From: a virus
Direction: 5' to 3' (one strand)
DNA: 18,373 nt
Virus record (IMG/VR): IMGVR_UViG_3300045988_028413
Span: 1-18,373 of that record
Below, piece by piece: positions 1 through 18,373 of the stretch. The notes beneath the pieces are model-generated. The model was not told where the DNA came from. It made no database searches and worked only from the letters and a program-made list of their open reading frames with translations. The translations under genes were made by a program, and so were the position numbers. Within the stretch, counting starts at the first letter, position 1. Each line of letters begins with the position of its first letter.

Positions 1-157
1 GGACGACAGCGTTTGCCATGGAATGGGGGAAATGCTCTTCCAGACAGGCAGCAATGTTAGATGTTTGTCTAAATATCTAATTGCTTACCGACCGGTTGGC
101 AACTGTGTTTTAATATTTTGCATTCGTTTGTTTTCGGGCGTGTCGTGTTTTTGTTTG

Positions 158-166
158 TGTTATAGT
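158..166 (+). promoter_or_regulatory. Extended -10 promoter candidate (TGtTATAGT) inside the ITR, upstream of the ITR gene
   Basis: tgtTATAGTgtag lies ~34 nt upstream of the ATG at 200 and matches the TGnTATAAT class seen elsewhere in this genome. The same element exists mirrored in the right ITR. Confidence 0.35.
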
Positions 167-199
167 GTAGTTATCAACTTCAAGGGAAGGAAAAATAAA

Positions 200-400
200 A
201 TGATTAACAACACCGTTATTAAGGATTACGCCGAGGATTATATTCTGAACAGTGGTCAGCAACTCTCTGATTTTGATATTGATGTGATTGTTGAGAATCT
301 GCATCATGTGGCGGTGGTCAATAATATGACTATTGAGGGTTATGAGGATTGTGATTCGTTTCCGTCTGATGATTTTGTGGAAGCGTTTGAGGAAGCGTGA
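200..400 (+). CDS. ITR-encoded small highly acidic protein (66 aa), function unknown; DNA-mimic candidate
   Basis: ATG at 200 is preceded by the SD-like gggaaggaaaaataaaATG. The product MINNTVIKDYAEDY...DDFVEAFEEA has 16 D/E against 1 K and 0 R. The longer 23-400 ORF has a Cys/Phe-rich N-terminal extension from T-rich DNA and is probably non-coding. An identical copy sits in the right ITR. Confidence 0.6.
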   Translation: MINNTVIKDYAEDYILNSGQQLSDFDIDVIVENLHHVAVVNNMTIEGYEDCDSFPSDDFVEAFEEA

Positions 401-419
401 TTTGGAAGGGAGTCTTGAC

Positions 420-5833: not shown

Positions 5834-7549
5834 ATGTCCAATATTCGACCCCTCGCGGGTAAGGGAGACGTTGAGATCTTCAACGCCGTCCGAAACGCCA
5901 CTTCACCGCAGTTTCAGACTCGCATTCCGAGCGCTACGCAGGGAAATATTCGCAATGCCGTGGATACCATGCGCAATTTTCCATATTTGCGCGACGAATT
6001 CACCGGTGTTTTGATTCAGCGTCTTATCGGTCTGTATATCCAGCATGCTGACTGGGATGATCCGCTTAAGCTTATCGGCTCCCCACGCACTCTGAAGCGC
6101 TACGGCTCCACGTACGAACAGGCCGCTGTTGGTTTGGTCAAGGCGCGTACCCGTAATTTTAATAAAGAGTACTTGGGTGATGATGTGTATGGGCGCTACT
6201 CACTGCCAACCGCAAGCGTATTCCACCCCCTTACTTTTGATCATTACTATCCGGTTACCATCCCAGAGGACGCCTTGCTCACCGCGTTCGATGGCGAGTC
6301 CGGCATGTCGGATTACATTTCAGAGATCATGAACGCGCCGATCTTGAGCGATCGTAACGACATGTACTTGATGAAGACGCAGACCTTTGCAGAATACGCT
6401 CGCAAGGGTGGCTTCTATCGTGTTCACACCCCTGATGTGGGGGCGGCAAACTCCACTGAAGCGGACGCCAAGGGACTGCTGCGACTCATCCAGCAGGTGG
6501 CGAACGAACTCAAGGCTAGCCCAATGTCAGCCATGCCACGATATAATGCCATGAGCTGGGTGACTCCATGGCGCGACTCGGAAGCTATCCTCTTTGCCAC
6601 CCCGCAGGTGATCGCCGCGCTTAATGTGGAAGCTCTCGCCGCCGCGTTTAATATTGACAAGGTTAATGTGCCGTATCGTATCATTCCGATCCCGGAAGAC
6701 ATGTTCGGTATCGGTGGGCAGGGCGGCAAGGTACAGGCCGTCTTGACCACGGAAGACTTCTTCTTCTGCTGGGACGAGATGTTGGAGACGACGAACAGCC
6801 CCGTTAATCCGATTGACGGCACTCGCAACATCTTCTACAAGCATAGGGGGTCTATCACCCCTAATCCGTTTGCTAACGCGGTTCTTTTTTGGACAGGCAA
6901 AGACTCCAATAAGTCCGTGACCTTGCCAGATACGCTCACCACTTCGAAGCCAGTCTTTGAATTGAAAGTGCAGAAATACGGCCAGCCCGCCATCACCCCG
7001 CAGAATGTGGAACGTGGCGATCTCGTGCAAGTGGTGTCTACCATCGAAAGCGCGAACAAGACTAAGGCGTCCTTCCAGCCGGTCGGCATCGAATACAAGG
7101 TCGAAGGCGCGACCTCCCAGTTTACCAGCATTGATAATGACGGTATCCTGCGCTGTGGCCTTGACGAAACCGCCGAAAGCCTCAAGGTTACCGCTCAGGC
7201 AACCTACATCAATCCGGCTACACCGGAAATCGACCAGACCGTTTCCGCTGCACTGGACGTGCCGGTTAAGGGTACTTGGGTCGGCGGATTCGTCACCGGG
7301 GCACTGAAAGAAATCCATGTTGACGGGGCAAGCACTGTCAAGCAAGGCGAGAGTATCAAACTGACCGCCTCGGTTGTCTTGTATGACGGCAATAAGGTTG
7401 ATATCAGCAACATGGCCGATTGGAATGTGGATGCGAACGCCACCGTCGATAAGACAGGCAAGGTCACTGGTGCGAGTGTTGGTACGGCCAGGGTTTCAGC
7501 CAAGTTCGCGGGTGTAGTAGGCAACAGGAATATCAGCGTCACCGCCTGA
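5834..7549 (+). CDS. Major capsid protein (571 aa) with C-terminal Ig-like (Big_2-type) domain
   Basis: Strong SD (gttaggagatatatataATG) and a terminator downstream. N-terminal EIFNAVRNATSPQFQTRIPSATQGNIRNAV resembles the phi29 gp8 N-terminus ([29 protein letters not shown]) as I recall it. The last ~90 aa (VKQGESIKLTASVVLYDGNKVDISNMADWNVDANATVDKTGKVTGASVGTARVSAKF) have the Big_2 signature. Position after the scaffold matches. Confidence 0.85.
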   Translation: MSNIRPLAGKGDVEIFNAVRNATSPQFQTRIPSATQGNIRNAVDTMRNFPYLRDEFTGVLIQRLIGLYIQHADWDDPLKLIGSPRTLKRYGSTYEQAAVGLVKARTRNFNKEYLGDDVYGRYSLPTASVFHPLTFDHYYPVTIPEDALLTAFDGESGMSDYISEIMNAPILSDRNDMYLMKTQTFAEYARKGGFYRVHTPDVGAANSTEADAKGLLRLIQQVANELKASPMSAMPRYNAMSWVTPWRDSEAILFATPQVIAALNVEALAAAFNIDKVNVPYRIIPIPEDMFGIGGQGGKVQAVLTTEDFFFCWDEMLETTNSPVNPIDGTRNIFYKHRGSITPNPFANAVLFWTGKDSNKSVTLPDTLTTSKPVFELKVQKYGQPAITPQNVERGDLVQVVSTIESANKTKASFQPVGIEYKVEGATSQFTSIDNDGILRCGLDETAESLKVTAQATYINPATPEIDQTVSAALDVPVKGTWVGGFVTGALKEIHVDGASTVKQGESIKLTASVVLYDGNKVDISNMADWNVDANATVDKTGKVTGASVGTARVSAKFAGVVGNRNISVTA

Positions 7550-7616: not shown

Positions 7617-9857
7617 ATGAGCGCAAACGATTTGCCCATCAATTTTTCGTATGCAAAATGGACGCCCAACACGCGTTTCAAGCTGTGTAATGTGCCGTGG
7701 GATATGGGCTACCGGGATATCGTCAAATGGGATAAACAATCCCAGAAAGAGTATTTCGACCGGTTGAATGGTATTGAATTTACAGACTGCACCATGGCTA
7801 AATACGGACTGCCCGTAAGACTGCCTATTCCGTTTGCGCAGGCTAGCCAATATAATTATTTGATCGCCACGAACGATTATGACTTCGATACCCCCCGTAG
7901 CTGGTATTATTTCATCCAGACATGCGATTATATCAACGCCAACACCACACAGCTCAATATCCAGTTGGACGTATGGCAATCATTCCAGCACGATATTCAG
8001 TTGGGCAATGCCTATGTAGAGCGCGGCCATGTGGGCGTAGCCAACGAAAACGCATGGAAAGACTGGGGAAAAACCTACCTTGATCTGCCCGAAGGACTCG
8101 ACACCGGCAAATGTACGGTACTGACTAACGAATCATGGAAGCCATTGATGGACATAGGATCACATGACGGCGTGAAATACACGTCATATGGACTGATTAT
8201 CGTAAGCACCACCGACTTGGAAGCAAGCCCTGGCACCAAAGATAATCCGGTAGTCAATACCGCTACGGGCAGTGCTTTTGAAAGTCAGTTGAATGGCACA
8301 TCCATGTATTATTTGGACACTCCCGCCGATATTGTCGCATTCTTCACTGAAGGCATGAATGCGCCATGGGTAACGCAAGGTATTTGCGGCATCTACGCGG
8401 TGCCTCATCTACCGCAAGCCTTATTGGATGGTCAGCCGAAAAAGACGGAACTCTTCGGTCACTCGGTCGGTTTCATCGGCAATTGCTGGGAACTACGCAA
8501 ACGAAACGACAATAGCAACGCACGCTACGCGGACATTATCAATCTCAAAAATTTCCGAGACACTTTTACTTTGCCCGAACGCTATAAGTACCTGAAGAAA
8601 TTCCTTACCGCCCCATACGCCTATATCGAATGTTCATGCTTGAACGGTACCGTGATCGCGTATGAGCCTGAGCAGATTCCATCGGCTGACTTGATTATCC
8701 GCGAGTCGTGGAATTACGCGCCCCCTTCCCCACGCTTGAACTTCTACGTGAGAGGTTATCATGCAGGGAACTTGGGCGAACGCCAACCACTACCAGATAG
8801 CAAAGGATTGCCTATCGATACGGGCGACATGCTCGACGCATCATTTGGCATTACAAATTTCCCGACCTTTATGGCGGTGAACAACGGATCCGCTCTCGCT
8901 CTTGCGAACAGCGCATACACCCGTCAATATGCGCAACAATCTGCAGATTGGGGGTATCAAAAAACACAAATGGGCATCAACAACGCTTACGCTCAGGCAC
9001 AACTTGGAACGCAGTATGCGAGCGCACAGAACAGGTTGGGCGCGTCCAACCGGAACGCCATGAATGCGATCAGCAATCAATCTGCGCAGATGGGTACCGA
9101 TTTGACGTTGAAGAACCTCGGATTCAGCAACCAGATGGCGCAGTTGAACACGATTGGGTCGGGTGTGGCGAACGCTGTGGGTTCCGCCGTTACCGGCAAT
9201 ATGGGAGGTGTGGCCGGTGCCATAGCGGGCACCGCGATCGGCGCATGGACAAACCAGCAAACCTACAGCAACAACGTTTCAACCGCCAACCAACAATTGG
9301 CGAACACGCAGACCACGAACAACGCCAGTACCTCACAGGCCAACGCTTTTTCGCTCGCGCAAACCAACTTGAGCAATCAGCAAACCATGCAACTCGCGGA
9401 CATGAACAGACAGTTGGCGCAGGCCACGGCGCAAGGCGATTACGAAAACACGATCGCGGGCATCAACGCGCAGGTTCAGCAGACTCAGACCGTACCGCCG
9501 ACCACGTCCGGCGCTCTTGGAGGTGACGCTTTCAATTTGGCGAACGGACTGATTGGCGTCATGGTGCGGTTTAGGCAAATCTCTCCCGCCGCCATGCAAG
9601 CCATCGGAGAAGTATGGCTACGCTACGGGTATTACGTGCAACGGTTCATGAAACTGCCTGAAAATCTTATGACAATGAGCAATTTTACCTATTGGAAACT
9701 ACACGAGTTGTACGTGCGTTCGAGCACATGTCCCGAAGAGTACCGCCTAACTGTGAAGGGTATTTTCGAGAGTGGCGTGACCGTGTGGACTGACCCCGAG
9801 AAAATCGGTGTCACCGATTATGCGGACAATGTGCCTTTAAGCGGTATTGCATACTGA
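7617..9857 (+). CDS. Tail knob / distal tube protein (phi29 gp9-like), 746 aa, with an expanded Q/N/A-rich low-complexity central region
   Basis: Located directly upstream of the portal gene, as gp9 is upstream of gp10. The Gly/Ala-rich stretch GSGVANAVGSAVTGNMGGVAGAIAGTAIGA and the C-terminal YYVQRFMKLPENL...GIFESGVTVWTDPEK resemble the phi29 gp9 flexible loop and its C-terminal ...GITLWHTD as I recall them. About 190 aa of Q/N/A-rich sequence (QLANTQTTNNASTSQANAF...) are inserted. Confidence 0.7.
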   Translation: MSANDLPINFSYAKWTPNTRFKLCNVPWDMGYRDIVKWDKQSQKEYFDRLNGIEFTDCTMAKYGLPVRLPIPFAQASQYNYLIATNDYDFDTPRSWYYFIQTCDYINANTTQLNIQLDVWQSFQHDIQLGNAYVERGHVGVANENAWKDWGKTYLDLPEGLDTGKCTVLTNESWKPLMDIGSHDGVKYTSYGLIIVSTTDLEASPGTKDNPVVNTATGSAFESQLNGTSMYYLDTPADIVAFFTEGMNAPWVTQGICGIYAVPHLPQALLDGQPKKTELFGHSVGFIGNCWELRKRNDNSNARYADIINLKNFRDTFTLPERYKYLKKFLTAPYAYIECSCLNGTVIAYEPEQIPSADLIIRESWNYAPPSPRLNFYVRGYHAGNLGERQPLPDSKGLPIDTGDMLDASFGITNFPTFMAVNNGSALALANSAYTRQYAQQSADWGYQKTQMGINNAYAQAQLGTQYASAQNRLGASNRNAMNAISNQSAQMGTDLTLKNLGFSNQMAQLNTIGSGVANAVGSAVTGNMGGVAGAIAGTAIGAWTNQQTYSNNVSTANQQLANTQTTNNASTSQANAFSLAQTNLSNQQTMQLADMNRQLAQATAQGDYENTIAGINAQVQQTQTVPPTTSGALGGDAFNLANGLIGVMVRFRQISPAAMQAIGEVWLRYGYYVQRFMKLPENLMTMSNFTYWKLHELYVRSSTCPEEYRLTVKGIFESGVTVWTDPEKIGVTDYADNVPLSGIAY

Positions 9858-9865
9858 CATATATA

Positions 9866-9893
9866 ATAGGGAGAGTATAATAACTCTCCCTAT
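9866..9893 (+). promoter_or_regulatory. Hairpin atagggagag-tataataa-ctctccctat with TATAAT in the loop, ending 4 nt before the portal ATG; a second TATAAT lies at 9862-9867
   Basis: Perfect 10-bp stem with no U-tract. It overlaps the end of the tail-knob gene (stop 9855-9857). Confidence 0.5.
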
Positions 9894-9897
9894 TACT

Positions 9898-10854
9898 ATG
9901 TTAAGGACGGTTATAGTGGGTAAACGTAATAATGCACGTAAGGCCGCGCATTGGGACAATCAGAGTGTGCTCGGCTCCATGTGGGGCAACCTCAATCTGC
10001 CCGAAATGCGGCAAAGCTTACGAATTAATCAATATATGAAGCTGATTGAAATGCTGGCAGTAAGCCGATTCAAATGGATTAACTTACCCCCGTACATTGA
10101 TGAAAGATATTTGGAACTGACTTTGTTTGAAAACGGTTTAGCCCTCTTCTTCCCCGATAAAAGAAAAGGGGTAAACCGTTTTATGGTTACGTCCGGTAAT
10201 ATTGGCGGGGTTAACAACTATAATAATCCAACGTCATTCCAGCCGGTGGCAACCCATTATTCGCACCCACAGATCGGTTCAAAAAAGTGCGTGCCGATTT
10301 GGGACAACCAGCTACGTTGTACCATGATTGACGTCATGTGGAATTATGCGACGCGATTGGCCATTGCAGATCGTGCGCTGGATGTGAATTTGGATAATAT
10401 TTCCGTGCCGTTGATTATCGCCACGTCCGAAACCAACAAATTGACCGCCCAAAACCTCATGAAGGCGAGAGAAGACGGCGACCCATACATTTACACCTAT
10501 GATAGTGCCGATATCACCGGCATGTTCCAAACATTCCCCAACGTCACACCATTCCTTGCGGACAAAATCATCACCACGAAAACGCAGATCTGGAACGAAT
10601 TAGTCAATTATCTCGGCATCGACAACAGCACTACGGAAAAGAAGGAGCGGTTGCTAGAAAGTGAAGTCACGGCAGGCAACAGTCGAACGAATGTGTTTCG
10701 ACTGAGCTATTTGAAGGCACGCCAACAGGCGTGCGATACGATTAACCGGTTGTGGCCGCAAATGGCTGACTCGGGGTGCCCCATCGGCATTGAGTGGAAT
10801 GACACCACGTCTGGCGGTCTATTGGACGTGGAAGGCAACAAGGAAGAGGAATAG
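9898..10854 (+). CDS. Portal / head-tail connector protein (phi29 gp10-like)
   Basis: [35 protein letters not shown] compares with phi29 [64 protein letters not shown] compares with [51 protein letters not shown] compares with FLKSREEACEKINELYG. The start is uncertain: ATG 9898, or GTG 9916 ([10 protein letters not shown], resembling phi29 MARKRSN) with SD aagga. The ORF-track TTG start at 9847 overlaps the upstream hairpin. Confidence 0.9.
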   Translation: [318 protein letters not shown]

Positions 10855-10856
10855 AC

Positions 10857-11669
10857 ATGGTGCAAGACTTGAGCATGTACGCCATCAAAGACAGCATGGC
10901 CGATTACACGATGACCTTAGGCAATCTGATAGACCGTGGATTCAATACGGATGAAAAACTGCATTTAAGTTCGCAATATTACCCGATTTTCGACGAAAAT
11001 TATAGGGCGAAATTGAACGAGAAAATCGTAGCCCACTACGCACTGCGCGAAATCGGAAGCGAAACGCCACAAATGTTCGTATTTTATCTTGGGCGTACCA
11101 TGCGCGAACAAATGGACTATTACAATCAACTTTATTTATCCGCACAACGCAAGTTCGACCCGTTTATCACGTCCGATATCCGGCTGGAAATGGATTCGAC
11201 CAGTACGAACGAATCCAGCGGCAAATCTACGGGGGAGCAATCCAATACATCCACGGCAAACAGCACGTCCGATACCACGGCAGACAATTCGAGCATGACG
11301 TTTAACAGCGAGTTCCCGCAGACCCGTATCGACGATTTCAAACAGTTTGCTACCAGTGCGTCACAGACCGACTCACTTGGCAACACGCATACAAGCACCC
11401 AGCAGGACAGTACGGCCACCGCAACCAGCACCAGCAACACCGACTATGCGCACTCTTCCGACAAGGGCAATTCCACCTCACATACGCTCGGAACGAGCGG
11501 TTCACAATCCCAACTCCTACAAGACTGGCGCAGTACCATGCTCAACATTGATATGATGGTGATTAACTCGTTGGAAGACTTGTTTATGGGCATGTGGGGC
11601 AGTGGCGACAACATGACCAACGTACCACAGCTTTACAGTACCTCACTAGCATATAATCTCGGCCACTAG
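10857..11669 (+). CDS. Putative lower collar protein (gp11-like by position), 270 aa, with a Ser/Thr-rich low-complexity segment
   Basis: The ATG is three nt after the portal stop (aatagacATG), suggesting translational coupling. Its size is close to phi29 gp11. It contains ~110 aa of S/T/N-rich sequence (STSTNESSGKSTGEQSNTSTANSTSDTT...SQSQ), which is unusual for this role. No sequence-level support. Confidence 0.4.
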   Translation: MVQDLSMYAIKDSMADYTMTLGNLIDRGFNTDEKLHLSSQYYPIFDENYRAKLNEKIVAHYALREIGSETPQMFVFYLGRTMREQMDYYNQLYLSAQRKFDPFITSDIRLEMDSTSTNESSGKSTGEQSNTSTANSTSDTTADNSSMTFNSEFPQTRIDDFKQFATSASQTDSLGNTHTSTQQDSTATATSTSNTDYAHSSDKGNSTSHTLGTSGSQSQLLQDWRSTMLNIDMMVINSLEDLFMGMWGSGDNMTNVPQLYSTSLAYNLGH

Positions 11670-11701: not shown

Positions 11702-12301
11702 ATGGACGGAATAAACCTATGTGCCGCACCGCTCGACATTGACCCACGACAACGGTATTTCACCACAGTACAACCGTTTTCGTACCGCGATACCTTGACA
11801 GTGTTGGGATATGTGCAGGAGGTGGCCGAACATCTTGACCATCTCAGAGAACAGCTTGACAATCTCGCCAAAGACGAAAACGCGGACATCGAAGCCATCA
11901 AACAGCTGATAGCCGGTTTTAATGAGCAGTTCGAGCGTATTAACAAGACGCTGGATGACTTGGAAAAACAGGTCGGACAGTATGAAGATTCAGGCCTTAC
12001 ATATAATCCGACCCGCGGCAAATACGAGGATAGCAAAAACACGAACCGAGACGTATACCGAGAGTTGGCAGTGTTCGGGGCGCGAGTCAATCAAATGGCT
12101 CAACTTAGCGTGCCAATGGCGGCGGCGCACACCTGCTTGGAGTTCGCCGTGCTCGGTAACAAAACCATTTTCCACAATGATGAGCCACGCATCACACCGC
12201 GTGATGTGCACATGGATGATGGGGAGCCGGTCAATCCGCTAACGGTTGAAAATCTCGCCAATGGCGTCGTGGTCAACAATTTTATGAAAACTGCAAAATA
12301 A
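11702..12301 (+). CDS. Hypothetical structural (tail/appendage-region) protein, 199 aa, with a predicted coiled-coil segment
   Basis: Strong SD (gattggaggattaATG). Coiled-coil-like EHLDHLREQLDNLAKDENADIEAIKQLIAGFNEQFERINKTLDDLEKQV. Lies between the collar and fibre genes. Confidence 0.5.
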   Translation: MDGINLCAAPLDIDPRQRYFTTVQPFSYRDTLTVLGYVQEVAEHLDHLREQLDNLAKDENADIEAIKQLIAGFNEQFERINKTLDDLEKQVGQYEDSGLTYNPTRGKYEDSKNTNRDVYRELAVFGARVNQMAQLSVPMAAAHTCLEFAVLGNKTIFHNDEPRITPRDVHMDDGEPVNPLTVENLANGVVVNNFMKTAK

Positions 12302-12319: not shown

Positions 12320-12673
12320 ATGACTAGTAAAACCACAAATTATAATCTCGAAAAATATGATGCAACCGATTCGCCGAACCTTCAGGGTGCATACAATCGG
12401 TCAATAGACATTATTGACATGACGCTGAAAGCCCAGTCAGACAAAATCGACACCATCCCGACACCGGAAAAACTACCGGACGGGCTGAAAGCGTTCTGCA
12501 CCGCCTTGGGATTGACCAATTCGAATGCGGGAGCGCTCGGTACCGCGCTCAATCATCTCCTCAACCGCACTCCTGCCAGCAATGGCGGACAGTATACGGT
12601 CAAAAATCTCAACGACACGAAGGTTACTGCGGAAGGATTGCCGTTCGTGTCCACCACCTCTACGGGGAAGTGA
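12320..12673 (+). CDS. Short fibre/appendage protein (117 aa) carrying the shared N-terminal anchor module (copy A)
   Basis: SD caggaaggattacaggaaATG. N-terminal TTNYNLEKYDATDSPNLQGAYNRSIDIIDMTLKA is paralogous to the N-termini of the two following genes. Confidence 0.55.
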   Translation: MTSKTTNYNLEKYDATDSPNLQGAYNRSIDIIDMTLKAQSDKIDTIPTPEKLPDGLKAFCTALGLTNSNAGALGTALNHLLNRTPASNGGQYTVKNLNDTKVTAEGLPFVSTTSTGK

Positions 12674-12679
12674 CATATT

Positions 12680-12862
12680 ATGGCAGACGGTCAGCAGACC
12701 ACGCCCGTGGATTCCGCCGCGTACGACGTGACCAGACATTGGGGACTTCCGCTCTACAATGATGCAACCACTATGGACTTAAGAGATGGCTACAATCATG
12801 CCATGCGTATGATTGACCAGATTCTAACCCAGCTGCAGACTCAAATTCGAGAAAAGGATTAG
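12680..12862 (+). CDS. Stand-alone fibre N-terminal anchor module (60 aa; copy B)
   Basis: HWGLPLYNDATTMDLRDGYNHAMRMIDQILTQL aligns with NYGLNLYGDNDPADLRDGYNGSMRTIDTTLKT at the start of the 515-aa fibre. It has its own start (ggggaagtgacatattATG) and a different frame from the downstream gene. It consists of the module plus a short helical tail only. Confidence 0.5.
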   Translation: MADGQQTTPVDSAAYDVTRHWGLPLYNDATTMDLRDGYNHAMRMIDQILTQLQTQIREKD

Positions 12863-12867
12863 CATAA

Positions 12868-14415
12868 ATGGCTACAGTATATACGAAAACCGACAATTAC
12901 GGTTTGAACTTGTATGGGGACAATGACCCCGCCGACCTGAGAGACGGTTACAACGGCTCCATGCGCACCATCGACACCACTTTGAAAACGCACCTGAATC
13001 GTATCGAGGGTGTGGAAGCTCGTGAAACCCATGATGAAGCGGTCATGAAGGCACTGCTTGTGGATAACACGGTGGATAACGCCACCGCGTCGAAAACCAA
13101 ATGGGATAAAGCAGGTATCGACGCCGCCGCCGCCGCAAGCAAGGCCGATGCAAACACAGCAATTCTCACCGCGCTCGGAGCTGGTTCCACCGTCAATGCC
13201 GCCGCACAAAAAACCAAGTGGGATAAGGCAGTGGACACCGCCAATAGCAACGCTCGGGCATTGACCGCGCTCGGGAGCGATACTACCGAGACCGCCACCG
13301 CAAATAAAACCAAGTGGAATGCCGCTTCCACCACCGCTACTAGCAATAATCAGGCATTGACCGCCCTTGGCAGCAACACAGTCGGCACCGCCACCGCCAA
13401 TAAATCCAAGTGGGACAAGGCTGCGACGGATGCCGCCGCCGCTCTCAACGCCGTCCACACCCCAGACAAGCTCAAGGATTATGTGGTAGTGTTGGGTGAT
13501 AGTTGGGTGGACGGATATTATGGTGGTGCGAAACATATCGACCAGTCACCCGCCGTCGCCATCAAGGAAAAACTCAGCCCACAACGCTTTTACTACAAGG
13601 GTTCCAGCGCTGGCGGTTTTGCTGTGTCCGGTGACGACGGGACGTTTATGGACATTTGGAACACCGTTCCAGATAAAAACAAGGTGACGGCGGTTATCGT
13701 CATCGGCGGACAGAATGACGCCACTGGACTCGAACAGCAACGTACCAGCGAATCCGTCATTACCTCCAAGGCTCGCGAACTCATGCAGACCATTCACGCG
13801 GAAGCGCCGAACGCCGAGATCCATGTCTGCCCCATGGTGTTGGCAGTCGGCCAAACATTAACAAAAACTCAGAACCACGGCTCGGATAGGGCGCACCGTC
13901 TTGCAGTTGTGAAGGCATTGACCCTCAACTTGAAGGATTTAGGTTTCGGCTGGATTCATGTACATGAGGGCGGATACCGTATCGGCGTGGTGGCTTCTCA
14001 GGCTTCGGACGGTGGCGACGGTGGTGATGGTGCGCACCTGAGCCGTGGGGGATACGTGCTTGCCGGATATTGGATAGCCCACTGCGTCGCCGCAGGTATC
14101 GACCTATGGCCCACGAACTACGGAGGTCCAAGCGAAAGCCAAATCAGCGGCAAATGGGATTACGTCAACATCTACGAGCGTGATGGGATATTGTCCATCG
14201 GCTTCAAAGTCAACTATAACGCGAAGCCGAACAATGCCGCCCGTATCTTCAAACTGCCGAAATGGGCAACCATCGGCAACTCCCATTTCTATCCGAATTT
14301 CGACGGCAAAGGATTCGTAGCCATTGACGGCAATACGCTCAGCGTCCAGAACGCCGGAAATTTGGACAATACGGGCGTTCTCGTAGGTTCCTATATGATT
14401 CCCGCAGGAATGTGA
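12868..14415 (+). CDS. Tail fibre / appendage protein (515 aa): N-terminal anchor module (copy C), four ~32-aa KTKWDKA tandem repeats, an SGNH/GDSL-hydrolase (esterase) domain and a C-terminal beta-rich putative binding domain
   Basis: SGNH blocks read directly: block I VVLGDSWVDG (GDS nucleophile), block III IGGQNDA (GxND), block V DGGDGAHLS (DxxH). Repeats NATASKTKWDKA / NAAAQKTKWDKA / TATANKTKWNAA / TATANKSKWDKA. SD aaaaggatt. Confidence 0.75.
   Translation: MATVYTKTDNYGLNLYGDNDPADLRDGYNGSMRTIDTTLKTHLNRIEGVEARETHDEAVMKALLVDNTVDNATASKTKWDKAGIDAAAAASKADANTAILTALGAGSTVNAAAQKTKWDKAVDTANSNARALTALGSDTTETATANKTKWNAASTTATSNNQALTALGSNTVGTATANKSKWDKAATDAAAALNAVHTPDKLKDYVVVLGDSWVDGYYGGAKHIDQSPAVAIKEKLSPQRFYYKGSSAGGFAVSGDDGTFMDIWNTVPDKNKVTAVIVIGGQNDATGLEQQRTSESVITSKARELMQTIHAEAPNAEIHVCPMVLAVGQTLTKTQNHGSDRAHRLAVVKALTLNLKDLGFGWIHVHEGGYRIGVVASQASDGGDGGDGAHLSRGGYVLAGYWIAHCVAAGIDLWPTNYGGPSESQISGKWDYVNIYERDGILSIGFKVNYNAKPNNAARIFKLPKWATIGNSHFYPNFDGKGFVAIDGNTLSVQNAGNLDNTGVLVGSYMIPAGM
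13078..13480 (+). repeat. Four in-frame tandem repeats (period 96-117 nt, about 32 aa) inside the fibre gene
   Basis: Repeat starts near 13078, 13195, 13291 and 13387 (acc gcc acc gc[agc] aat aaa [at]cc aag tgg ga[tc] aag gc). The matching antisense ORFs 12859-13536 and 12948-13346 are artefacts of this repetitive GC-rich stretch. Confidence 0.75.
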
Positions 14416-14430: not shown

Positions 14431-14463
14431 ATAGCCATGCCACTATAATGGTGGTATGGCTAT
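14431..14463 (+). promoter_or_regulatory. 13-bp hairpin (atagccatgccac-tataatg-gtggtatggctat, one G-T pair) with TATAAT in the loop; the 3' arm contains the CHAP-gene start codon (14456)
   Basis: Read directly from the sequence. It could occlude the start codon and SD in the mRNA. Confidence 0.45.
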
Positions 14464-15670
14464 TACTTTCTCACAGTGGATTGATCAGACAAAAAACCGA
14501 TACTGGGATATGGACGGCGCGTATGGGGCGCAATGCTGGGACTTATGGGCAAAATATTCCATGGATATGTACGGCATGTCCATACAGGACTGTATTACCC
14601 CTACCGGTTATGCGGGCGGACTGTACACCTCATATCCCGTGTCGGCTCGATGCGAACAAGTGTACGAACGTATCCCTGCCAATGGGTACTCGCCTGTGGC
14701 GGGGGATGTAGCAATATGGGGATACGGCACATATACCCCCTACACGCATGTTGCGATTGTGGCTAGCAATGATGGGGTGAAAAACAACAGCATTTACATC
14801 ATCACCCAAAATCCGGACGCAAGCGCACTCAAATGGTTTCCCACCGCTGGACTGTTGGGCTACCTACATCCCCGTGCCATGCCGAAGCCGGACGTGGACA
14901 ATCCGACCGGCGACAACAATCAAGGACACCCCGACACAGCGCGGGGCGGCGCGTGGATACACTGGCAGGGTGACAATCTGTACTTGCACGAAACAGACAA
15001 TAATGGCGCAAGGACTCGCATTTTTTATAAGACAACCGCCAATAATTTTTCGGAAAAAGCGTCGCAAGGCCAACCGTCCGACTCGCAAGGACAAGGCCAC
15101 CCATCCAGCTCGGTCAGTGCGGAAAACTCTTATGCCCTCTATGTGGTCGGCACAGTGGAAGCGGGATTACGCTGGGATGCAGTTGAAGCGGCCAACTTGC
15201 AGGGTATCGGCATTGCGCAATGGAGTTTCGGACGCCGATTGCAAGTGTTGAATGCCATGAAGACGGCAGACCCAACCGGCTATACGGCATTCAAAACCGC
15301 CGCGCCGCAGATTGCGGCACTCATGGAATCAGGGGGCGAGTTTACTCGGAGCCTCACGCAGGCAGAAGCGGCGGCATTTCAAGCGTGGGCGGCACGTAGT
15401 GAATCCCATGAGGGTCAGCGCAGGCAGTTCGCCGAAGACTACGTCGGATATCCGCACCAGTATGATGATAATAAAATGCAGATACTATGGGTTACGGCAT
15501 ACCACCAATCACCCGCGAACGCGCTCAAGGTGCCGAAGGCGTCGAATCTCGCACAGCTCAAAAACAATATTCTGAGCACGTACCCATTTCAGCCGTACGT
15601 GAATCGATACAATCAGGCGTACTCATTGTTGAGTGTGTGGGATGGAAAATCGAATCCGCCCGCATTCTAA
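14456..15670 (+). CDS. Tail-associated cell-wall hydrolase (phi29 gp13 analogue by position): N-terminal CHAP peptidase domain plus ~240-aa C-terminal domain of unknown, possibly glycosidase-like, function
   Basis: CHAP Cys in GAYGAQCWDLW and His in YTPYTHVAIV, then IITQNP. It is paralogous to the endolysin CHAP (DMDGAYGGQCWDLW...NHVAIVV...MSQNP). It lies between the fibre and the packaging ATPase. The C-terminal region (YALYVVGTVEAGLRWDAVEAANLQGIGIAQWSF...) is unassigned. Confidence 0.75.
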   Translation: MAITFSQWIDQTKNRYWDMDGAYGAQCWDLWAKYSMDMYGMSIQDCITPTGYAGGLYTSYPVSARCEQVYERIPANGYSPVAGDVAIWGYGTYTPYTHVAIVASNDGVKNNSIYIITQNPDASALKWFPTAGLLGYLHPRAMPKPDVDNPTGDNNQGHPDTARGGAWIHWQGDNLYLHETDNNGARTRIFYKTTANNFSEKASQGQPSDSQGQGHPSSSVSAENSYALYVVGTVEAGLRWDAVEAANLQGIGIAQWSFGRRLQVLNAMKTADPTGYTAFKTAAPQIAALMESGGEFTRSLTQAEAAAFQAWAARSESHEGQRRQFAEDYVGYPHQYDDNKMQILWVTAYHQSPANALKVPKASNLAQLKNNILSTYPFQPYVNRYNQAYSLLSVWDGKSNPPAF

Positions 15671-17239: not shown

Positions 17240-17917
17240 ATGAATATTCAAGAATGGATGAACAGCGTTAACGGACAGGTAGTAGACATGGACGGCGCAT
17301 ACGGAGGACAATGCTGGGACTTATGGAGTTCCTACGCCCGAAACGTCTATGGCATTCCAGCCGCCGACACCAACACCGTTGACGGATACGCCGCAAGCGT
17401 CTATTCTGCACAATATGACCGCTCCCGCGCTCTACAAGACACGTTCTACAGAGAAGCAGGAAACTACACGCCAGTTTACGGTGACGTAGCATTTTGGAAC
17501 GGAGCAGGCATGAACCACGTAGCCATCGTAGTCAAAGACAATGGCAACGGCACCTTGGAAACCATGTCACAGAACCCAAACAAAGCCGGATACGTGACCC
17601 TCAGCAAGAACGGTATCATCGGCTACTTCCACCCGCGCACAGCAAACACGCCCGCACCGGCACCAGCAAACAACAACGTAACAGTCATTCCACGCACATA
17701 CAAGGTCAACGTGGACGTGCTTAACGTGCGTTCGGCACCGTCAACCTCAGCACCAGTAGTAGCCCAATACCATTACGGACAAACCGTCAACCTATCCGAA
17801 GGAGGCACTATCGCAGACGGATACATTTGGGCACACTATACAGGCGGCTCAGGAGCCACTAGATACGTCGCACTCGCACCCGCAGACAAATCAACGTGGT
17901 ATCTCGTATTCGCCTGA
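17240..17917 (+). CDS. Endolysin: N-terminal CHAP amidase/peptidase plus C-terminal SH3b-type cell-wall-binding domain (225 aa)
   Basis: CHAP Cys (DMDGAYGGQCWDLW) and His (MNHVAIVV). Linker TANTPAPAPANNN. C-terminal VNVDVLNVRSAPSTSAPVVAQYHYGQTVNL...GYIWAHY...RYVALA is typical of SH3_3/SH3_5. SD agaaggaaaactagaATG overlaps the holin stop. Confidence 0.85.
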   Translation: MNIQEWMNSVNGQVVDMDGAYGGQCWDLWSSYARNVYGIPAADTNTVDGYAASVYSAQYDRSRALQDTFYREAGNYTPVYGDVAFWNGAGMNHVAIVVKDNGNGTLETMSQNPNKAGYVTLSKNGIIGYFHPRTANTPAPAPANNNVTVIPRTYKVNVDVLNVRSAPSTSAPVVAQYHYGQTVNLSEGGTIADGYIWAHYTGGSGATRYVALAPADKSTWYLVFA

Positions 17918-17972: not shown

Positions 17973-18373
17973 ATCACGCTTCCTCAAACGCTTCCACAAA
18001 ATCATCAGACGGAAACGAATCACAATCCTCATAACCCTCAATAGTCATATTATTGACCACCGCCACATGATGCAGATTCTCAACAATCACATCAATATCA
18101 AAATCAGAGAGTTGCTGACCACTGTTCAGAATATAATCCTCGGCGTAATCCTTAATAACGGTGTTGTTAATCATTTTATTTTTCCTTCCCTTGAAGTTGA
18201 TAACTACACTATAACACAAACAAAAACACGACACGCCCGAAAACAAACGAATGCAAAATATTAAAACACAGTTGCCAACCGGTCGGTAAGCAATTAGATA
18301 TTTAGACAAACATCTAACATTGCTGCCTGTCTGGAAGAGCATTTCCCCCATTCCATGGCAAACGCTGTCGTCC
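17973..18373. repeat. Right inverted terminal repeat (~401 bp)
   Basis: Reverse complement of 1-401; see the left ITR entry. Confidence 0.9.
17974..18174 (-). CDS. Second, identical copy of the ITR-encoded acidic 66-aa protein
   Basis: Mirror image of 200-400, and the only minus-strand gene in the window. Its own promoter-like TGtTATAGT is mirrored at about 18208-18216. Confidence 0.6.
   Translation of the reverse strand: MINNTVIKDYAEDYILNSGQQLSDFDIDVIVENLHHVAVVNNMTIEGYEDCDSFPSDDFVEAFEEA

What the first reader, a model, noticed from the sequence alone, without database searches (positions are those of the whole stretch)
12320..14415. Three consecutive genes share one N-terminal anchor module, including a stand-alone 60-aa copy
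The 117-aa, 60-aa and 515-aa ORFs each start with a homologous ~35-aa module (xNYxLxLYxDxDxxDLRDGYNxSMRxIDxxL). The B and C copies are about 60% identical at the protein level but diverged at the nucleotide level, so this is not a recent duplication. Copy B is essentially the module alone plus a short helix. It has its own start signal and is out of frame with the downstream gene. Conserved fibre N-termini are the usual handle for attaching to the virion and for cassette exchange by recombination. Three co-existing copies suggest three possibilities. First, mixed or heteromeric appendages sharing one docking site. Second, a module-only protein that caps or titrates docking sites to set fibre stoichiometry. 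Third, scars of successive fibre-cassette acquisitions.
Basis: seen in the sequence. Interest (0 to 1): 0.65.

Follow-up and report, generated by a model that had tools for sequence, protein, structure and literature searches.

The report
Shared docking handle on three tail proteins
In a small phi29-like virus of gut Bifidobacterium, three neighbouring tail genes begin with the same ancient ~45-residue attachment handle, and the 60-residue handle-only gene is a conserved, selected gene found in every relative examined rather than a leftover, although its function has not been tested.

Summary
ORFs A (12320-12673), B (12680-12862) and C (12868-14415) share an N-terminal module: B-C 54%/35 aa, A-C 38%/48 aa, profile-profile 93-99%. 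Third codon positions are saturated, so the duplication is old.

The window is a complete phi29-like Bifidobacterium podovirus. B (54-65 aa) sits next to a large module-bearing gene in 83/83 related loci, in four cultured gut phages, in honeybee phages and in other divergent lineages. It is under purifying selection (dN/dS 0.04-0.15). A occurs in 35 of those loci, always intact (dN/dS 0.08). "Scars" is therefore refuted.

C is an exchangeable enzymatic fibre: 14 C-terminal types, and the shortest segment shared between types is the module (46-60 aa).

The upstream gene (11702-12301, "p199") is homologous to the N-terminal anchor of the one-piece pre-neck appendages of other actinobacterial phi29-like phages (hhalign 97%). 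So the appendage looks split into an anchored adapter plus handle-bearing proteins.

My best reading, which is inferred, is that the module is a loop-plus-helix docking handle and B is a handle-only stub that fills docking sites. A mixed A/B/C stem is not excluded. This is a new variant of anchor-branch receptor-binding systems. Interest is moderate.

The parts
9847..10854 (+). Portal/connector (phi29 gp10 family). Context: part of the neck to which appendages attach.
   Evidence: Pfam Phage_connector, E 3.7e-39.
10857..11669 (+). Lower collar (adaptor Ad4 / phi29 gp11 equivalent). Context.
   Evidence: PHROG 3225 'adaptor Ad4' E 4e-29 and PHROG 5472 'lower collar'. 87-96% identical in 80 IMG/VR relatives.
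11702..12301 (+). p199, the putative appendage adapter. It has an N-terminal 'QPFSYRD' anchor, a long coiled coil (about aa 28-96), a highly conserved 'YNPTRGKYEDS..RDVYRELAVFGARV' domain, and a ~30-aa C-terminal tail that is found in all loci that also have gene A.
   Evidence: hhalign against the N-termini of pre-neck appendage or tail-fibre proteins of Curtobacterium, Arthrobacter, Actinomyces Av-1, Rhizobium and Microbacterium phages: 97.3%, E 1.9e-11, p199 aa 10-92. The AF2 model has low confidence (pLDDT 54) but shows helix 28-96. Tail versus gene A: 35/35 loci, with one exception, L082. It does not contain the A/B/C module (hhalign 0.95%).
12320..12673 (+). Gene A, 117 aa, a mini-fibre. 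It has the module (aa 2-43), then two short helices, then a weakly predicted C-terminal beta-hairpin.
   Evidence: Module HMM E 1e-20. 288 clusters of homologues, the top 120 all 117-118 aa. dN/dS 0.08. AF2: loop 1-21, helix 22-44 with pLDDT about 90, helices 54-62 and 67-81, strands 100-102 and 108-110. Relatives of variable length, 81-170 aa, keep both ends.
12323..12448 (+). Module copy in A (aa 2-43).
   Evidence: hmmsearch coordinates. BLASTP versus C.
12680..12862 (+). Gene B, 60 aa, the handle-only protein. It has a variable N-terminal tail (aa 1-14) and the module (aa 15-56), and it ends where the helix ends.
   Evidence: Module HMM E 2e-25. Present in 83/83 related loci. 550 database clusters, the top 120 all 51-82 aa on 17-19 kb contigs. 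dN/dS 0.035 in type I loci and 0.15 in others. The heptad core is fully hydrophobic: position Y+14 is L/M/I in 64/64.
12722..12847 (+). Module copy in B (aa 15-56).
   Evidence: hmmsearch coordinates. BLASTP versus C.
12868..14415 (+). Gene C, 515 aa, the exchangeable enzymatic appendage or receptor-binding protein. It has the module (aa 5-46), four ~32-aa KTKWDKA...ALTALG repeats (aa 76-210), an SGNH/GDSL esterase domain (aa ~206-400) and a C-terminal domain.
   Evidence: Module HMM E 9e-24. Pfam Lipase_GDSL, 24.6 bits (cut-off 23.6), and Lipase_GDSL_2, below cut-off. Repeats. Mosaicism.
12880..13005 (+). Module copy in C (aa 5-46).
   Evidence: hmmsearch coordinates.
14456..15670 (+). Tail-associated cell-wall hydrolase (phi29 gp13 equivalent; CHAP plus a lysozyme-like domain). 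It marks the downstream edge of the appendage block.
   Evidence: Pfam CHAP E 2.8e-8 and Phage_lysozyme2 (below cut-off). Conserved position in all relatives.

Best explanation
The window is a complete phi29-like podovirus of Bifidobacterium. A, B and C are three ancient paralogues. They share a ~45-residue N-terminal docking handle: a ~20-residue loop followed by a ~22-residue, three-heptad helix. The handle fixes them to the neck appendage apparatus.

The appendage here is split into two components. The first is p199 (11702-12301), which keeps the canonical collar-binding anchor and coiled coil of ordinary one-piece pre-neck appendages but has no receptor-binding domain. It acts as an adapter. 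The second component is the set of handle-bearing proteins, which dock on the adapter or on the collar beside it.

C is the exchangeable enzymatic receptor-binding protein (SGNH esterase here). A is a short accessory fibre. B is the handle alone. Its all-hydrophobic heptads suggest it can form a short coiled-coil stub on its own. I propose that B is a virion component that occupies handle-docking sites not used by fibres, so it completes or stabilises the docking ring and sets how many fibres are mounted.

Shown: homology, conservation, purifying selection, cassette exchange, and the homology of the p199 anchor. Inferred: that the handle is a docking element (by analogy and position), that its partner is p199, and the role of B.
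For: (1) Virus identity and gene order: Pfam and PHROG hits for DNA polymerase, Phi29_MCP, gp9 tail knob, connector and lower collar. The window is 75-81% identical in DNA to Bifidobacterium phages BP1 and BD811P1-3. It has 401-bp terminal inverted repeats.

(2) Module homology. In 699 50%-identity clusters the module always lies at the extreme N-terminus.

(3) B is in 83/83 loci. It is also in the divergent lineages L085, L089, L094, L095 and L096 and in the honeybee phages BadAztec1 and BadAargau2, whose collar is only 42% identical. dN/dS is 0.035-0.15 for B and 0.08 for A.

(4) Cassette exchange occurs directly behind the module.

(5) The AF2 model of A shows a loop at 1-21 and a confident helix at 22-44. 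The helix ends at the same aligned position in A (IPTP), B (C-terminus) and C (Gly48), as read from the sequences.

(6) In the solved picovirus Andhra, the receptor-binding protein starts with a 36-38-residue loop and then a coiled coil. The loop is the contact with portal and collar, and it is conserved between the otherwise unrelated Andhra and P68 receptor-binding proteins (PMC9710869).

(7) p199 N-terminus versus canonical appendage N-termini: hhalign 97.3%, E 1.9e-11.

(8) Phyletic pattern. Every module-bearing lineage examined has a p199-like gene with the 'G.Y..S....RDMY' domain just upstream. Phages with one-piece appendages lack the module. Eggerthella phage LE1-1 has a p199-like protein without that domain and a fibre without the module.

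(9) B resembles its own genome's C more than other genomes' C in 7 of 8 lineages (47% versus 39%).

(10) Heptad position Y+14 is hydrophobic in all B copies but is His in C and Gln in A. This fits B being a self-sufficient short coiled coil.
Against: No direct evidence shows that B, A or p199 is in the virion. No proteomics or structure exists for these phages.

The docking partner is unproven. In Andhra and P68 the analogous loop binds portal and collar directly, not an adapter.

The module has no detectable sequence or fold match to any solved structure. The analogy therefore rests on architecture only.

The AF2 models are of modest quality (A, pLDDT 68) or poor quality (p199, pLDDT 54). No multimer prediction was possible.

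Lineages L092 and L097 have module-bearing fibres without a B-type gene, so B is not required for the handle to work.

The within-genome B-C similarity can be explained by gene conversion. The first 16 codons of B and C in BadAztec1 are 79% identical in DNA and 75% identical at third positions. Co-adaptation to a shared site is therefore not needed to explain it.
Confidence: 0.45

Rival explanations
1. Heteromeric stem. A, B and C, or B and C in phages without A, do not form separate homotrimers. They contribute one or two chains each to a common three-helix stem. The three non-equivalent positions of a fibre base have been sub-functionalised into paralogous chains, and only one chain (C) carries a normally monomeric enzyme.
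For: The post-loop helix has the same length and ends at the same aligned position in A, B and C. The C cargos (SGNH, GDPD, beta-propeller-like) belong to enzyme families that are usually monomeric (own knowledge). The genes are adjacent and in many relatives overlap by 4 nt (ATGA), which suggests coupled, near-stoichiometric synthesis. Most module-bearing lineages have at least two module genes side by side. In Andhra the three N-terminal loops of one trimer already adopt different conformations (PMC9710869).
Against: L097 has a single module-bearing fibre and no partner. Paralogue-specific core residues argue for different oligomeric contexts: B has Leu at the d-layer where C has His and A has Gln. 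Loci with two large fibres still have only one B. No precedent known to me exists for a heterotrimeric phage fibre base of this kind.
Confidence: 0.2
2. Same handle idea, but with direct docking on portal and lower collar, as in Andhra and P68. In this reading p199 is an independent neighbouring appendage or whisker, and B simply fills collar sites left free by C and A.
For: The Andhra and P68 precedent for a loop-plus-coiled-coil handle binding portal and collar. The C module is very conserved (dN/dS 0.06) alongside a conserved collar (87-96%).
Against: p199 carries the anchor that is homologous to the collar-proximal N-terminus of one-piece appendages. The canonical site is therefore probably taken. 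The module co-occurs with the conserved C-terminal domain of p199 across about 10 lineages, and the module is absent when that domain is absent.
Confidence: 0.2
3. B is not a virion component. It is an assembly factor: a handle mimic that transiently protects docking sites or the fibres' handles during morphogenesis, or times fibre attachment, and is then displaced.
For: B is small, has no distal domain and lies directly upstream of the fibre gene. Strong conservation is compatible with a chaperone-like role.
Against: Known fibre chaperones are usually encoded downstream of the fibre gene and act on C-terminal domains (own knowledge). A perfect heptad helix of the same length as in the fibres suggests a structural element. 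There is no supporting data.
Confidence: 0.1
4. A and B are decaying remnants (scars) of earlier fibre cassettes, or chance ORFs.
For: Truncated 'protein with conserved peptide' genes are described as remnants in KP32-like Klebsiella phages (PMC6872550). One small module ORF in lineage L086 looks like the 5' end of an L092-type fibre. A neighbouring accessory gene in type III relatives is visibly decaying.
Against: B is intact in 83/83 loci and in lineages whose collar is only 42% identical. A is intact in 35/35 loci. dN/dS is 0.04-0.15 with saturated dS. Hundreds of database clusters have a constant length.
Confidence: 0.03

Closest known systems
N-terminal loop plus coiled-coil attachment element of picovirus receptor-binding proteins (Staphylococcus phages Andhra gp15 and P68 gp17; cryo-EM, PMC9710869)
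   Same: Both are phi29-like podoviruses. The attachment element lies at the extreme N-terminus and consists of a loop (36-38 aa in Andhra; about 20-25 aa here) followed by an alpha-helical coiled coil. It is conserved while the rest of the protein is swapped for unrelated folds.
   Different: There is no detectable sequence similarity. Andhra and P68 have one receptor-binding-protein gene and no handle-only or mini-fibre paralogues. Their loop binds portal and collar directly, whereas here a separate anchored adapter (p199) exists.
Anchor-branch / adapter receptor-binding-protein systems of Gram-negative podoviruses (K1-5 gp37 adapter; G7C gp66/gp63.1; KP32- and KP34-like Klebsiella phages; PMC6872550, PMC13352976)
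   Same: One protein carries the particle anchor. It may be truncated to anchor-only, in other words an adapter. Other receptor-binding proteins carry a short conserved N-terminal peptide that docks on it. Cargo domains are exchanged horizontally. 'Truncated protein with conserved peptide' genes exist (KP32viruses group C).
   Different: Those systems use a T7 gp17-like anchor and T4 gp10-like branching domains, and neither was detected here. The truncated second proteins there are sporadic, whereas B here is universal in its clade and under purifying selection. The hosts here are Gram-positive and the virions are phi29-like.
One-piece pre-neck appendage or tail-spike proteins of actinobacterial phi29-like phages (Curtobacterium Ayka CF_10, Microbacterium PineapplePizza gp12, Arthrobacter Anjali-like phages, Actinomyces Av-1 ORF13)
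   Same: Their N-terminal ~90 residues ('QPFTYRD' anchor plus coiled coil) are homologous to p199 (hhalign 97.3%). The gene sits directly after the lower collar gene in both cases.
   Different: They continue into a large receptor-binding or enzymatic domain and lack the A/B/C module. In the Bifidobacterium phages the anchor-bearing protein stops after ~170-200 aa, and the enzymatic domain is on a separate, module-bearing gene.
T4 fibritin (wac) collar whiskers
   Same: A short trimeric coiled-coil protein attached by its N-terminus to the neck, with a small C-terminal beta-hairpin. This resembles what A, and the long forms of p199, look like.
   Different: The resemblance is architectural only. 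The PHROG 'fibritin neck whisker' hit of p199 is insignificant (E 0.035). The resemblance between the C-terminal motifs of A and p199 is not statistically supported.

Membership tests
phi29-like (protein-primed, ~18 kb) podoviruses | Type B protein-primed DNA polymerase, Phi29-type major capsid protein, gp9-type tail knob, gp10 connector, gp11 lower collar, gp16 packaging ATPase, and a small linear genome with terminal inverted repeats | tested here: met
   Pfam DNA_pol_B_2 9e-30, Phi29_MCP 4e-58, phi29_gp9_C 4.5e-9, Phage_connector 3.7e-39. Lower collar PHROG hit. The ATPase is 86-97% identical to proteins annotated as DNA packaging protein in relatives. 18,373 bp with a 401-bp exact inverted terminal repeat.
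Picovirus-type receptor-binding-protein attachment element (Andhra/P68) | N-terminal loop followed by a trimeric coiled coil at the start of the appendage protein | tested here: inconclusive
   The AF2 model of A gives loop 1-21 and helix 22-44 (pLDDT about 90). The heptad pattern is conserved. Trimer formation was not testable.
Picovirus-type receptor-binding-protein attachment element (Andhra/P68) | Sequence or structural homology to the Andhra/P68 loop | tested here: not met
   Profile searches of the PDB with the B profile and the A/B/C profile gave nothing at E <= 0.09 and no phage protein. Foldseek with the A model gave no match.
Picovirus-type receptor-binding-protein attachment element (Andhra/P68) | The loop contacts the portal stem/clip and the collar | not testable with these tools
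   This needs cryo-EM or multimer modelling.
Anchor-branch / adapter receptor-binding-protein systems | One protein with the particle anchor, and other receptor-binding proteins lacking it but sharing a short conserved N-terminal docking peptide | tested here: met
   p199 has the canonical appendage anchor. A, B and C lack it and share the module.
Anchor-branch / adapter receptor-binding-protein systems | T4 gp10-like branching domain in the anchor protein | tested here: not met
   No Pfam, PHROG or NCBIfam hit of that kind in p199. HHpred-level searches against T4 gp10 were not run.
Anchor-branch / adapter receptor-binding-protein systems | Physical docking of the conserved peptide on the anchor protein | not testable with these tools
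   The only evidence is phyletic co-occurrence of the module with the conserved C-terminal domain of p199.
SGNH/GDSL hydrolase (cargo of C) | Match to the GDSL lipase/acylhydrolase profile, including the N-terminal GDS motif | tested here: met
   PF00657, 24.6 bits versus cut-off 23.6. PF13472, 25.5 bits, below its cut-off of 32.9. The motif 'VVLGDSW' at aa 204-210 is read from the sequence. The match is marginal.
Pseudogene / cassette remnant | Sporadic presence, frame disruptions, and relaxed selection | tested here: not met
   B is in 83/83 loci and A is in 35/35 type I loci, all intact. dN/dS is 0.035-0.15.

The most novel reading that the evidence does not exclude
The handle-only protein B, together with A where present, is an obligatory chain of a mixed three-chain stem or docking ring. 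In that case a fibre base that is homotrimeric in other phages has been split by gene duplication into specialised paralogous chains. One chain carries a monomeric enzyme and the others are minimal. Alternatively, B is a dedicated stoichiometry-setting cap for docking sites on a split (adapter plus cargo) pre-neck appendage. Neither mechanism has been described for phi29-like or other tailed phages.
Probability: 0.2. Interest if true: 0.75.

Novelty: new variant of a known kind. Interest (0 to 1): 0.5.

Why it matters
These roughly 18-kb podoviruses are abundant in human gut metagenomes. Hundreds of distinct clusters of A, B and p199 occur on 17-19 kb contigs, and 80 near-complete relatives were found in IMG/VR alone. 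They are among the very few lytic phages known for Bifidobacterium.

Knowing that the receptor-binding enzyme is mounted through a ~45-residue exchangeable handle, next to a conserved handle-only protein and an anchored adapter, gives a concrete route to retargeting such phages by swapping everything after residue ~50 of C.

It also defines a simple genetic test. Deleting gp7 in the cultured phages BP1 or BD811P1 would show how fibre number or attachment is controlled in a minimal tailed virus.

Finally, it extends the anchor-plus-conserved-peptide logic, so far described for Gram-negative podoviruses, to phi29-like phages of Gram-positive hosts.

Tried and rejected
(1) p199 as a fourth copy of the module. 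This was suggested by the 'SYRD..L..Y' pattern. hhalign gave 0.95% probability, so it was rejected.

(2) The C-terminal beta-hairpin motif of A as a homologue of the C-terminal tail of p199 (a 'foldon-like' motif). An HMM of A's C-terminus gave only E 2.8 on one p199-like protein, so this is not supported. What remains is co-occurrence: 35/35 loci, one exception in L082, and the same pairing in L089.

(3) A B-C fusion by programmed frameshift. A TAA in C's frame lies directly upstream of C's ATG and there is no slippery heptamer. Rejected.

(4) Sequence homology of the module to any solved structure, Pfam, PHROG or NCBIfam family. None was found.

(5) Fold search with the AF2 model of A. Nothing was found. 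The AF2 model of p199 was too poor (pLDDT 54) to search.

(6) Close relatives of the divergent p199-like proteins of L092 and L085 in IMG/VR. None were found.

(7) Literature on virion proteomics or structure of BD811P1-3 or BP1. Nothing is in the searchable library. The BP1 paper discusses only gp5 and gp6.

(8) tblastn of the C handle against cultured phages. It detects only the BD811P and BP1 group. The BadAztec phages were found only through the collar protein and the HMM.

(9) Multimer structure prediction was not possible with the tools given.
Full report
WHAT THE WINDOW IS

The 18,373-bp window is a complete phi29-like podovirus genome. It has a 401-bp exact inverted terminal repeat. 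On the + strand it encodes:
- a protein-primed type B DNA polymerase
- a Phi29-type major capsid protein with a C-terminal Big_2 domain
- a gp9-type tail knob
- the connector (9847-10854)
- the lower collar (10857-11669)
- four genes discussed below
- a CHAP/lysozyme tail lysin (14456-15670)
- the packaging ATPase, a holin and an endolysin.

Its closest cultured relatives are Bifidobacterium phage BP1 (81% DNA identity over 79% of the genome) and B. dentium phages BD811P1-3.

THE OBSERVATION

- BLASTP: B-C 19/35 identical (E 1e-9), A-C 18/48 (E 2e-7), A-B 9/32 (E 1e-3).
- Profiles built from relatives: B-C 99% (E 3e-18), A-C 98% (E 4e-13), A-B 93.5% (E 2e-7).
- At the DNA level the modules are 48-49% identical, third-position identity is 27-37%, and no exact match is longer than 9 nt. 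The duplications are old.
- B and C are in different frames, 5 nt apart. A TAA in C's frame directly before its ATG rules out a frameshift fusion.

B-C identity is 54%, not about 60%.

ARE A AND B REAL GENES?

I searched IMG/VR with the lower collar protein and obtained 80 related loci that are 87-96% identical. I then scanned all + strand ORFs with an HMM of the module.

Every one of the 83 loci that covers the slot, counting the window and the four cultured phages, has a small module-only ORF. Its true length is 54-65 aa. It always lies directly upstream of a large gene whose residues 5-46 are the module. In BP1 this is gp7 and in BD811P1 it is gene 07. Both are annotated as hypothetical, and both overlap their neighbours by 4 nt.

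A (117-119 aa) is present and intact in 35 loci.

Nei-Gojobori dN/dS values:
- A: 0.08
- B: 0.035 in A-containing loci and 0.15 in the others
- the C module: 0.06

Mean dS is above 1 and therefore saturated, so the ratios are approximate. The direction is clear.

Database searches found 550 clusters (at 90% identity) for the B profile and 288 for A. Lengths are constant, and the contigs are almost all 17-19 kb. It is clearly not met, and the 'scar' reading is refuted.

DEPTH OF CONSERVATION

An exhaustive profile search found 699 clusters (at 50% identity) with the module. It was always at residues ~1-50, in proteins of 29-681 aa. I looked up genomic contexts for divergent members:
- L085, L095, L096: collar, p199-like protein, B (51-57 aa), C.
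- L089 and L094: the full A-B-C arrangement.
- Honeybee B. asteroides phages BadAztec1 and BadAargau2, whose collar is only 42% identical: collar, a 215-aa protein, a 79-aa A-like protein, a 55-aa B, a 449-aa SGNH fibre.
- L092 has an 81-aa A-like protein plus a fibre but no B. L097 has a single module-bearing fibre. B is therefore clade-wide but not indispensable to the handle.

WHAT THE MODULE LOOKS LIKE

The AF2 model of A (mean pLDDT 68) gives an extended loop at 1-21 and a confident helix at 22-44. Two short helices and a weak C-terminal hairpin follow.

The hydrophobic positions Y+4, +7, +11, +14 and +18 form a heptad pattern. The helix stops at the same aligned place in all three proteins: Ile-Pro-Thr-Pro in A, the C-terminus in B, and Gly48 in C.

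One core position is paralogue-specific. Y+14 is Leu, Met or Ile in 64/64 B sequences, His in 62/62 C sequences and Gln in 14/14 A sequences. B therefore has an uninterrupted hydrophobic core. That fits a protein that must hold a very short coiled coil together without downstream domains.

C IS AN EXCHANGEABLE CARGO PROTEIN

The 76 large module-bearing genes fall into 14 unrelated C-terminal clusters. Between clusters, the shared N-terminal stretch can be as short as 46-60 aa. The cargos include SGNH/GDSL esterases (including the window's C), a GDPD phosphodiesterase and pectate-lyase-like beta-helices. The BP1 paper reports a beta-helix for BP1 gp6 and a beta-propeller in BD811P1 (PMC12694917). 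Some genomes carry two large fibres behind one B (L022, L079).

THE UPSTREAM GENE CHANGES THE PICTURE

p199 (11702-12301) is a core gene in all of these phages. It does not contain the module. Its first ~90 residues are a 'QPFSYRD' motif plus a coiled coil. They are homologous to the N-termini of the one-piece pre-neck appendage, tail-spike or tail-fibre proteins of Curtobacterium, Arthrobacter, Microbacterium, Rhizobium and Actinomyces Av-1 phi29-like phages (hhalign 97.3%, E 1.9e-11). In those phages the gene also follows the lower collar gene, and the module is absent from all six reading frames.

In the Bifidobacterium phages, then, the canonical anchor and the receptor-binding enzyme are on different polypeptides.

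Every module-bearing lineage I examined has a p199-like protein with a very conserved 'Y.P..G.Y.DS....RDMYRELAV' domain. Eggerthella phage LE1-1 has a p199-like protein without that domain, followed by an SGNH fibre without the module.

This phyletic pattern and the tight gene linkage are why I favour docking of the handle on the adapter. The alternative, direct docking on portal and collar as in Andhra and P68, is not excluded.

VARIATION AROUND A AND B

Three architectures occur:
- Type I: p199 with a ~30-aa tail, then A, B, C. The window is type I.
- Type II: a 170-177-aa adapter, then B, C. BP1 and BD811P1-3 are type II.
- Type III: an adapter with a Pro-rich extension, then an optional 207-209-aa gene without the module, then B, C. 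The optional gene is often decayed.

The p199 tail is present in all 35 loci that have A. L089 shows the same pairing. L082 has the tail but no A. A claimed similarity between that tail and A's C-terminus did not reach significance.

B resembles its own genome's C more than other genomes' C in 7 of 8 lineages (47% versus 39%). In BadAztec1 this is at least partly gene conversion, because the first 16 codons are 79% identical in DNA. In the window it is not.

COMPARISON WITH KNOWN SYSTEMS

In the cryo-EM structure of Andhra, the receptor-binding protein begins with a 36-38-residue loop and a 34-38-residue coiled coil. The loop binds portal and collar, and it is the only part conserved with the unrelated P68 receptor-binding protein (PMC9710869). 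That is the same architecture as here, but there is no detectable homology.

The logic of an anchor protein, short conserved N-terminal docking peptides and sometimes truncated partners is known from K1-5, G7C and the KP32- and KP34-like phages (PMC6872550; PMC13352976). Those systems use T7-type anchors and T4 gp10-like branching domains that I did not detect here. Their truncated partners are sporadic.

I therefore file the locus as a new variant of a known kind: a split pre-neck appendage in phi29-like phages with a universally conserved handle-only paralogue.

VERDICT

- Shown: the homology, its antiquity, the conservation and selection of A and B, the cassette exchange behind the handle, and the homology of the p199 anchor.
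- Inferred: that the module is a docking element, that its partner is p199, and that B is a structural stub filling docking sites (confidence about 0.45).
- Rivals: a mixed A/B/C stem (0.2), direct collar docking (0.2), an assembly factor (0.1) and scars (0.03).
- The decisive experiments are feasible because BP1 and BD811P1-3 are in culture.

Noticed in passing
window 1-401 and 17973-18373: The two ends of the window are exact reverse complements over 401 bp. This fits a complete linear protein-primed genome with long inverted terminal repeats. An assembly artefact cannot be excluded.
   Followed up: partly
window 11702-12301: The 199-aa coiled-coil protein is homologous over its first ~90 residues to the N-terminal anchor of the one-piece pre-neck appendages of Curtobacterium, Arthrobacter, Microbacterium, Rhizobium and Actinomyces phi29-like phages (hhalign 97.3%). 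The appendage therefore appears to be split into an adapter plus cargo in Bifidobacterium phages.
   Followed up: yes
window 12203-12298 (p199 aa 168-199); relatives L007-L076: A ~30-aa C-terminal tail of p199 ('DDGEPV..LTVENLANGVVVNNFMK') is found in all 35 loci that also carry gene A, and again in divergent L089. L082 has the tail without A. The tail looks superficially like A's C-terminal hairpin, but the similarity is not significant.
   Followed up: partly
L021 11476-12105; L049 11475-12098; decayed in L005, L027, L055, L070: In type III relatives, the slot occupied by A in the window holds an unrelated 207-209-aa gene without the module. It is intact in some genomes and frameshifted, truncated or deleted in others. 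The slot is variable and partly decaying.
   Followed up: partly
L098 8665-8712 versus 8825-8872 (BadAztec1): The first 16 codons of B and C are 79% identical in DNA, with 75% identity at third positions. This indicates gene conversion between the paralogous 5' ends in the honeybee phage lineage. The window shows no such signal.
   Followed up: partly
window 13093-13497 (C aa 76-210): There are four ~32-aa repeats (KTKWDKA...ALTALG) between the handle and the SGNH domain of C. TRF detects the last two copies as a 96-nt tandem repeat. One such repeat is inserted in a 170-aa A-like protein (P0262), so A and C share spacer units.
   Followed up: partly
window 14456-15670 and 17240-17917: There are two CHAP-type cell-wall hydrolases that are 37% identical in their N-terminal domains. 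One is a 404-aa tail lysin (gp13 equivalent) with a lysozyme-like C-terminal half. The other is a 225-aa endolysin that follows the holin.
   Followed up: no
window 5834-7549: The major capsid protein carries a C-terminal Big_2 Ig-like domain (aa 500-556; E 6e-4, below the Pfam cut-off). This may be a capsid-surface decoration that takes the place of a separate head-fibre gene.
   Followed up: no
L022 11530-14779; L079 11528-14924; L061, L077, L068: Some relatives carry two large module-bearing fibre genes in tandem behind a single B, or one intact gene plus one truncated gene. These would be dual-specificity appendages or exchange intermediates.
   Followed up: partly
L086 10001-10180: In a distant phi29-like lineage, a 59-aa module-only ORF lies downstream of the fibre gene. 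It is nearly identical to the N-terminus of L092-type large fibres. Here a remnant origin is plausible, unlike for B in the Bifidobacterium clade.
   Followed up: partly
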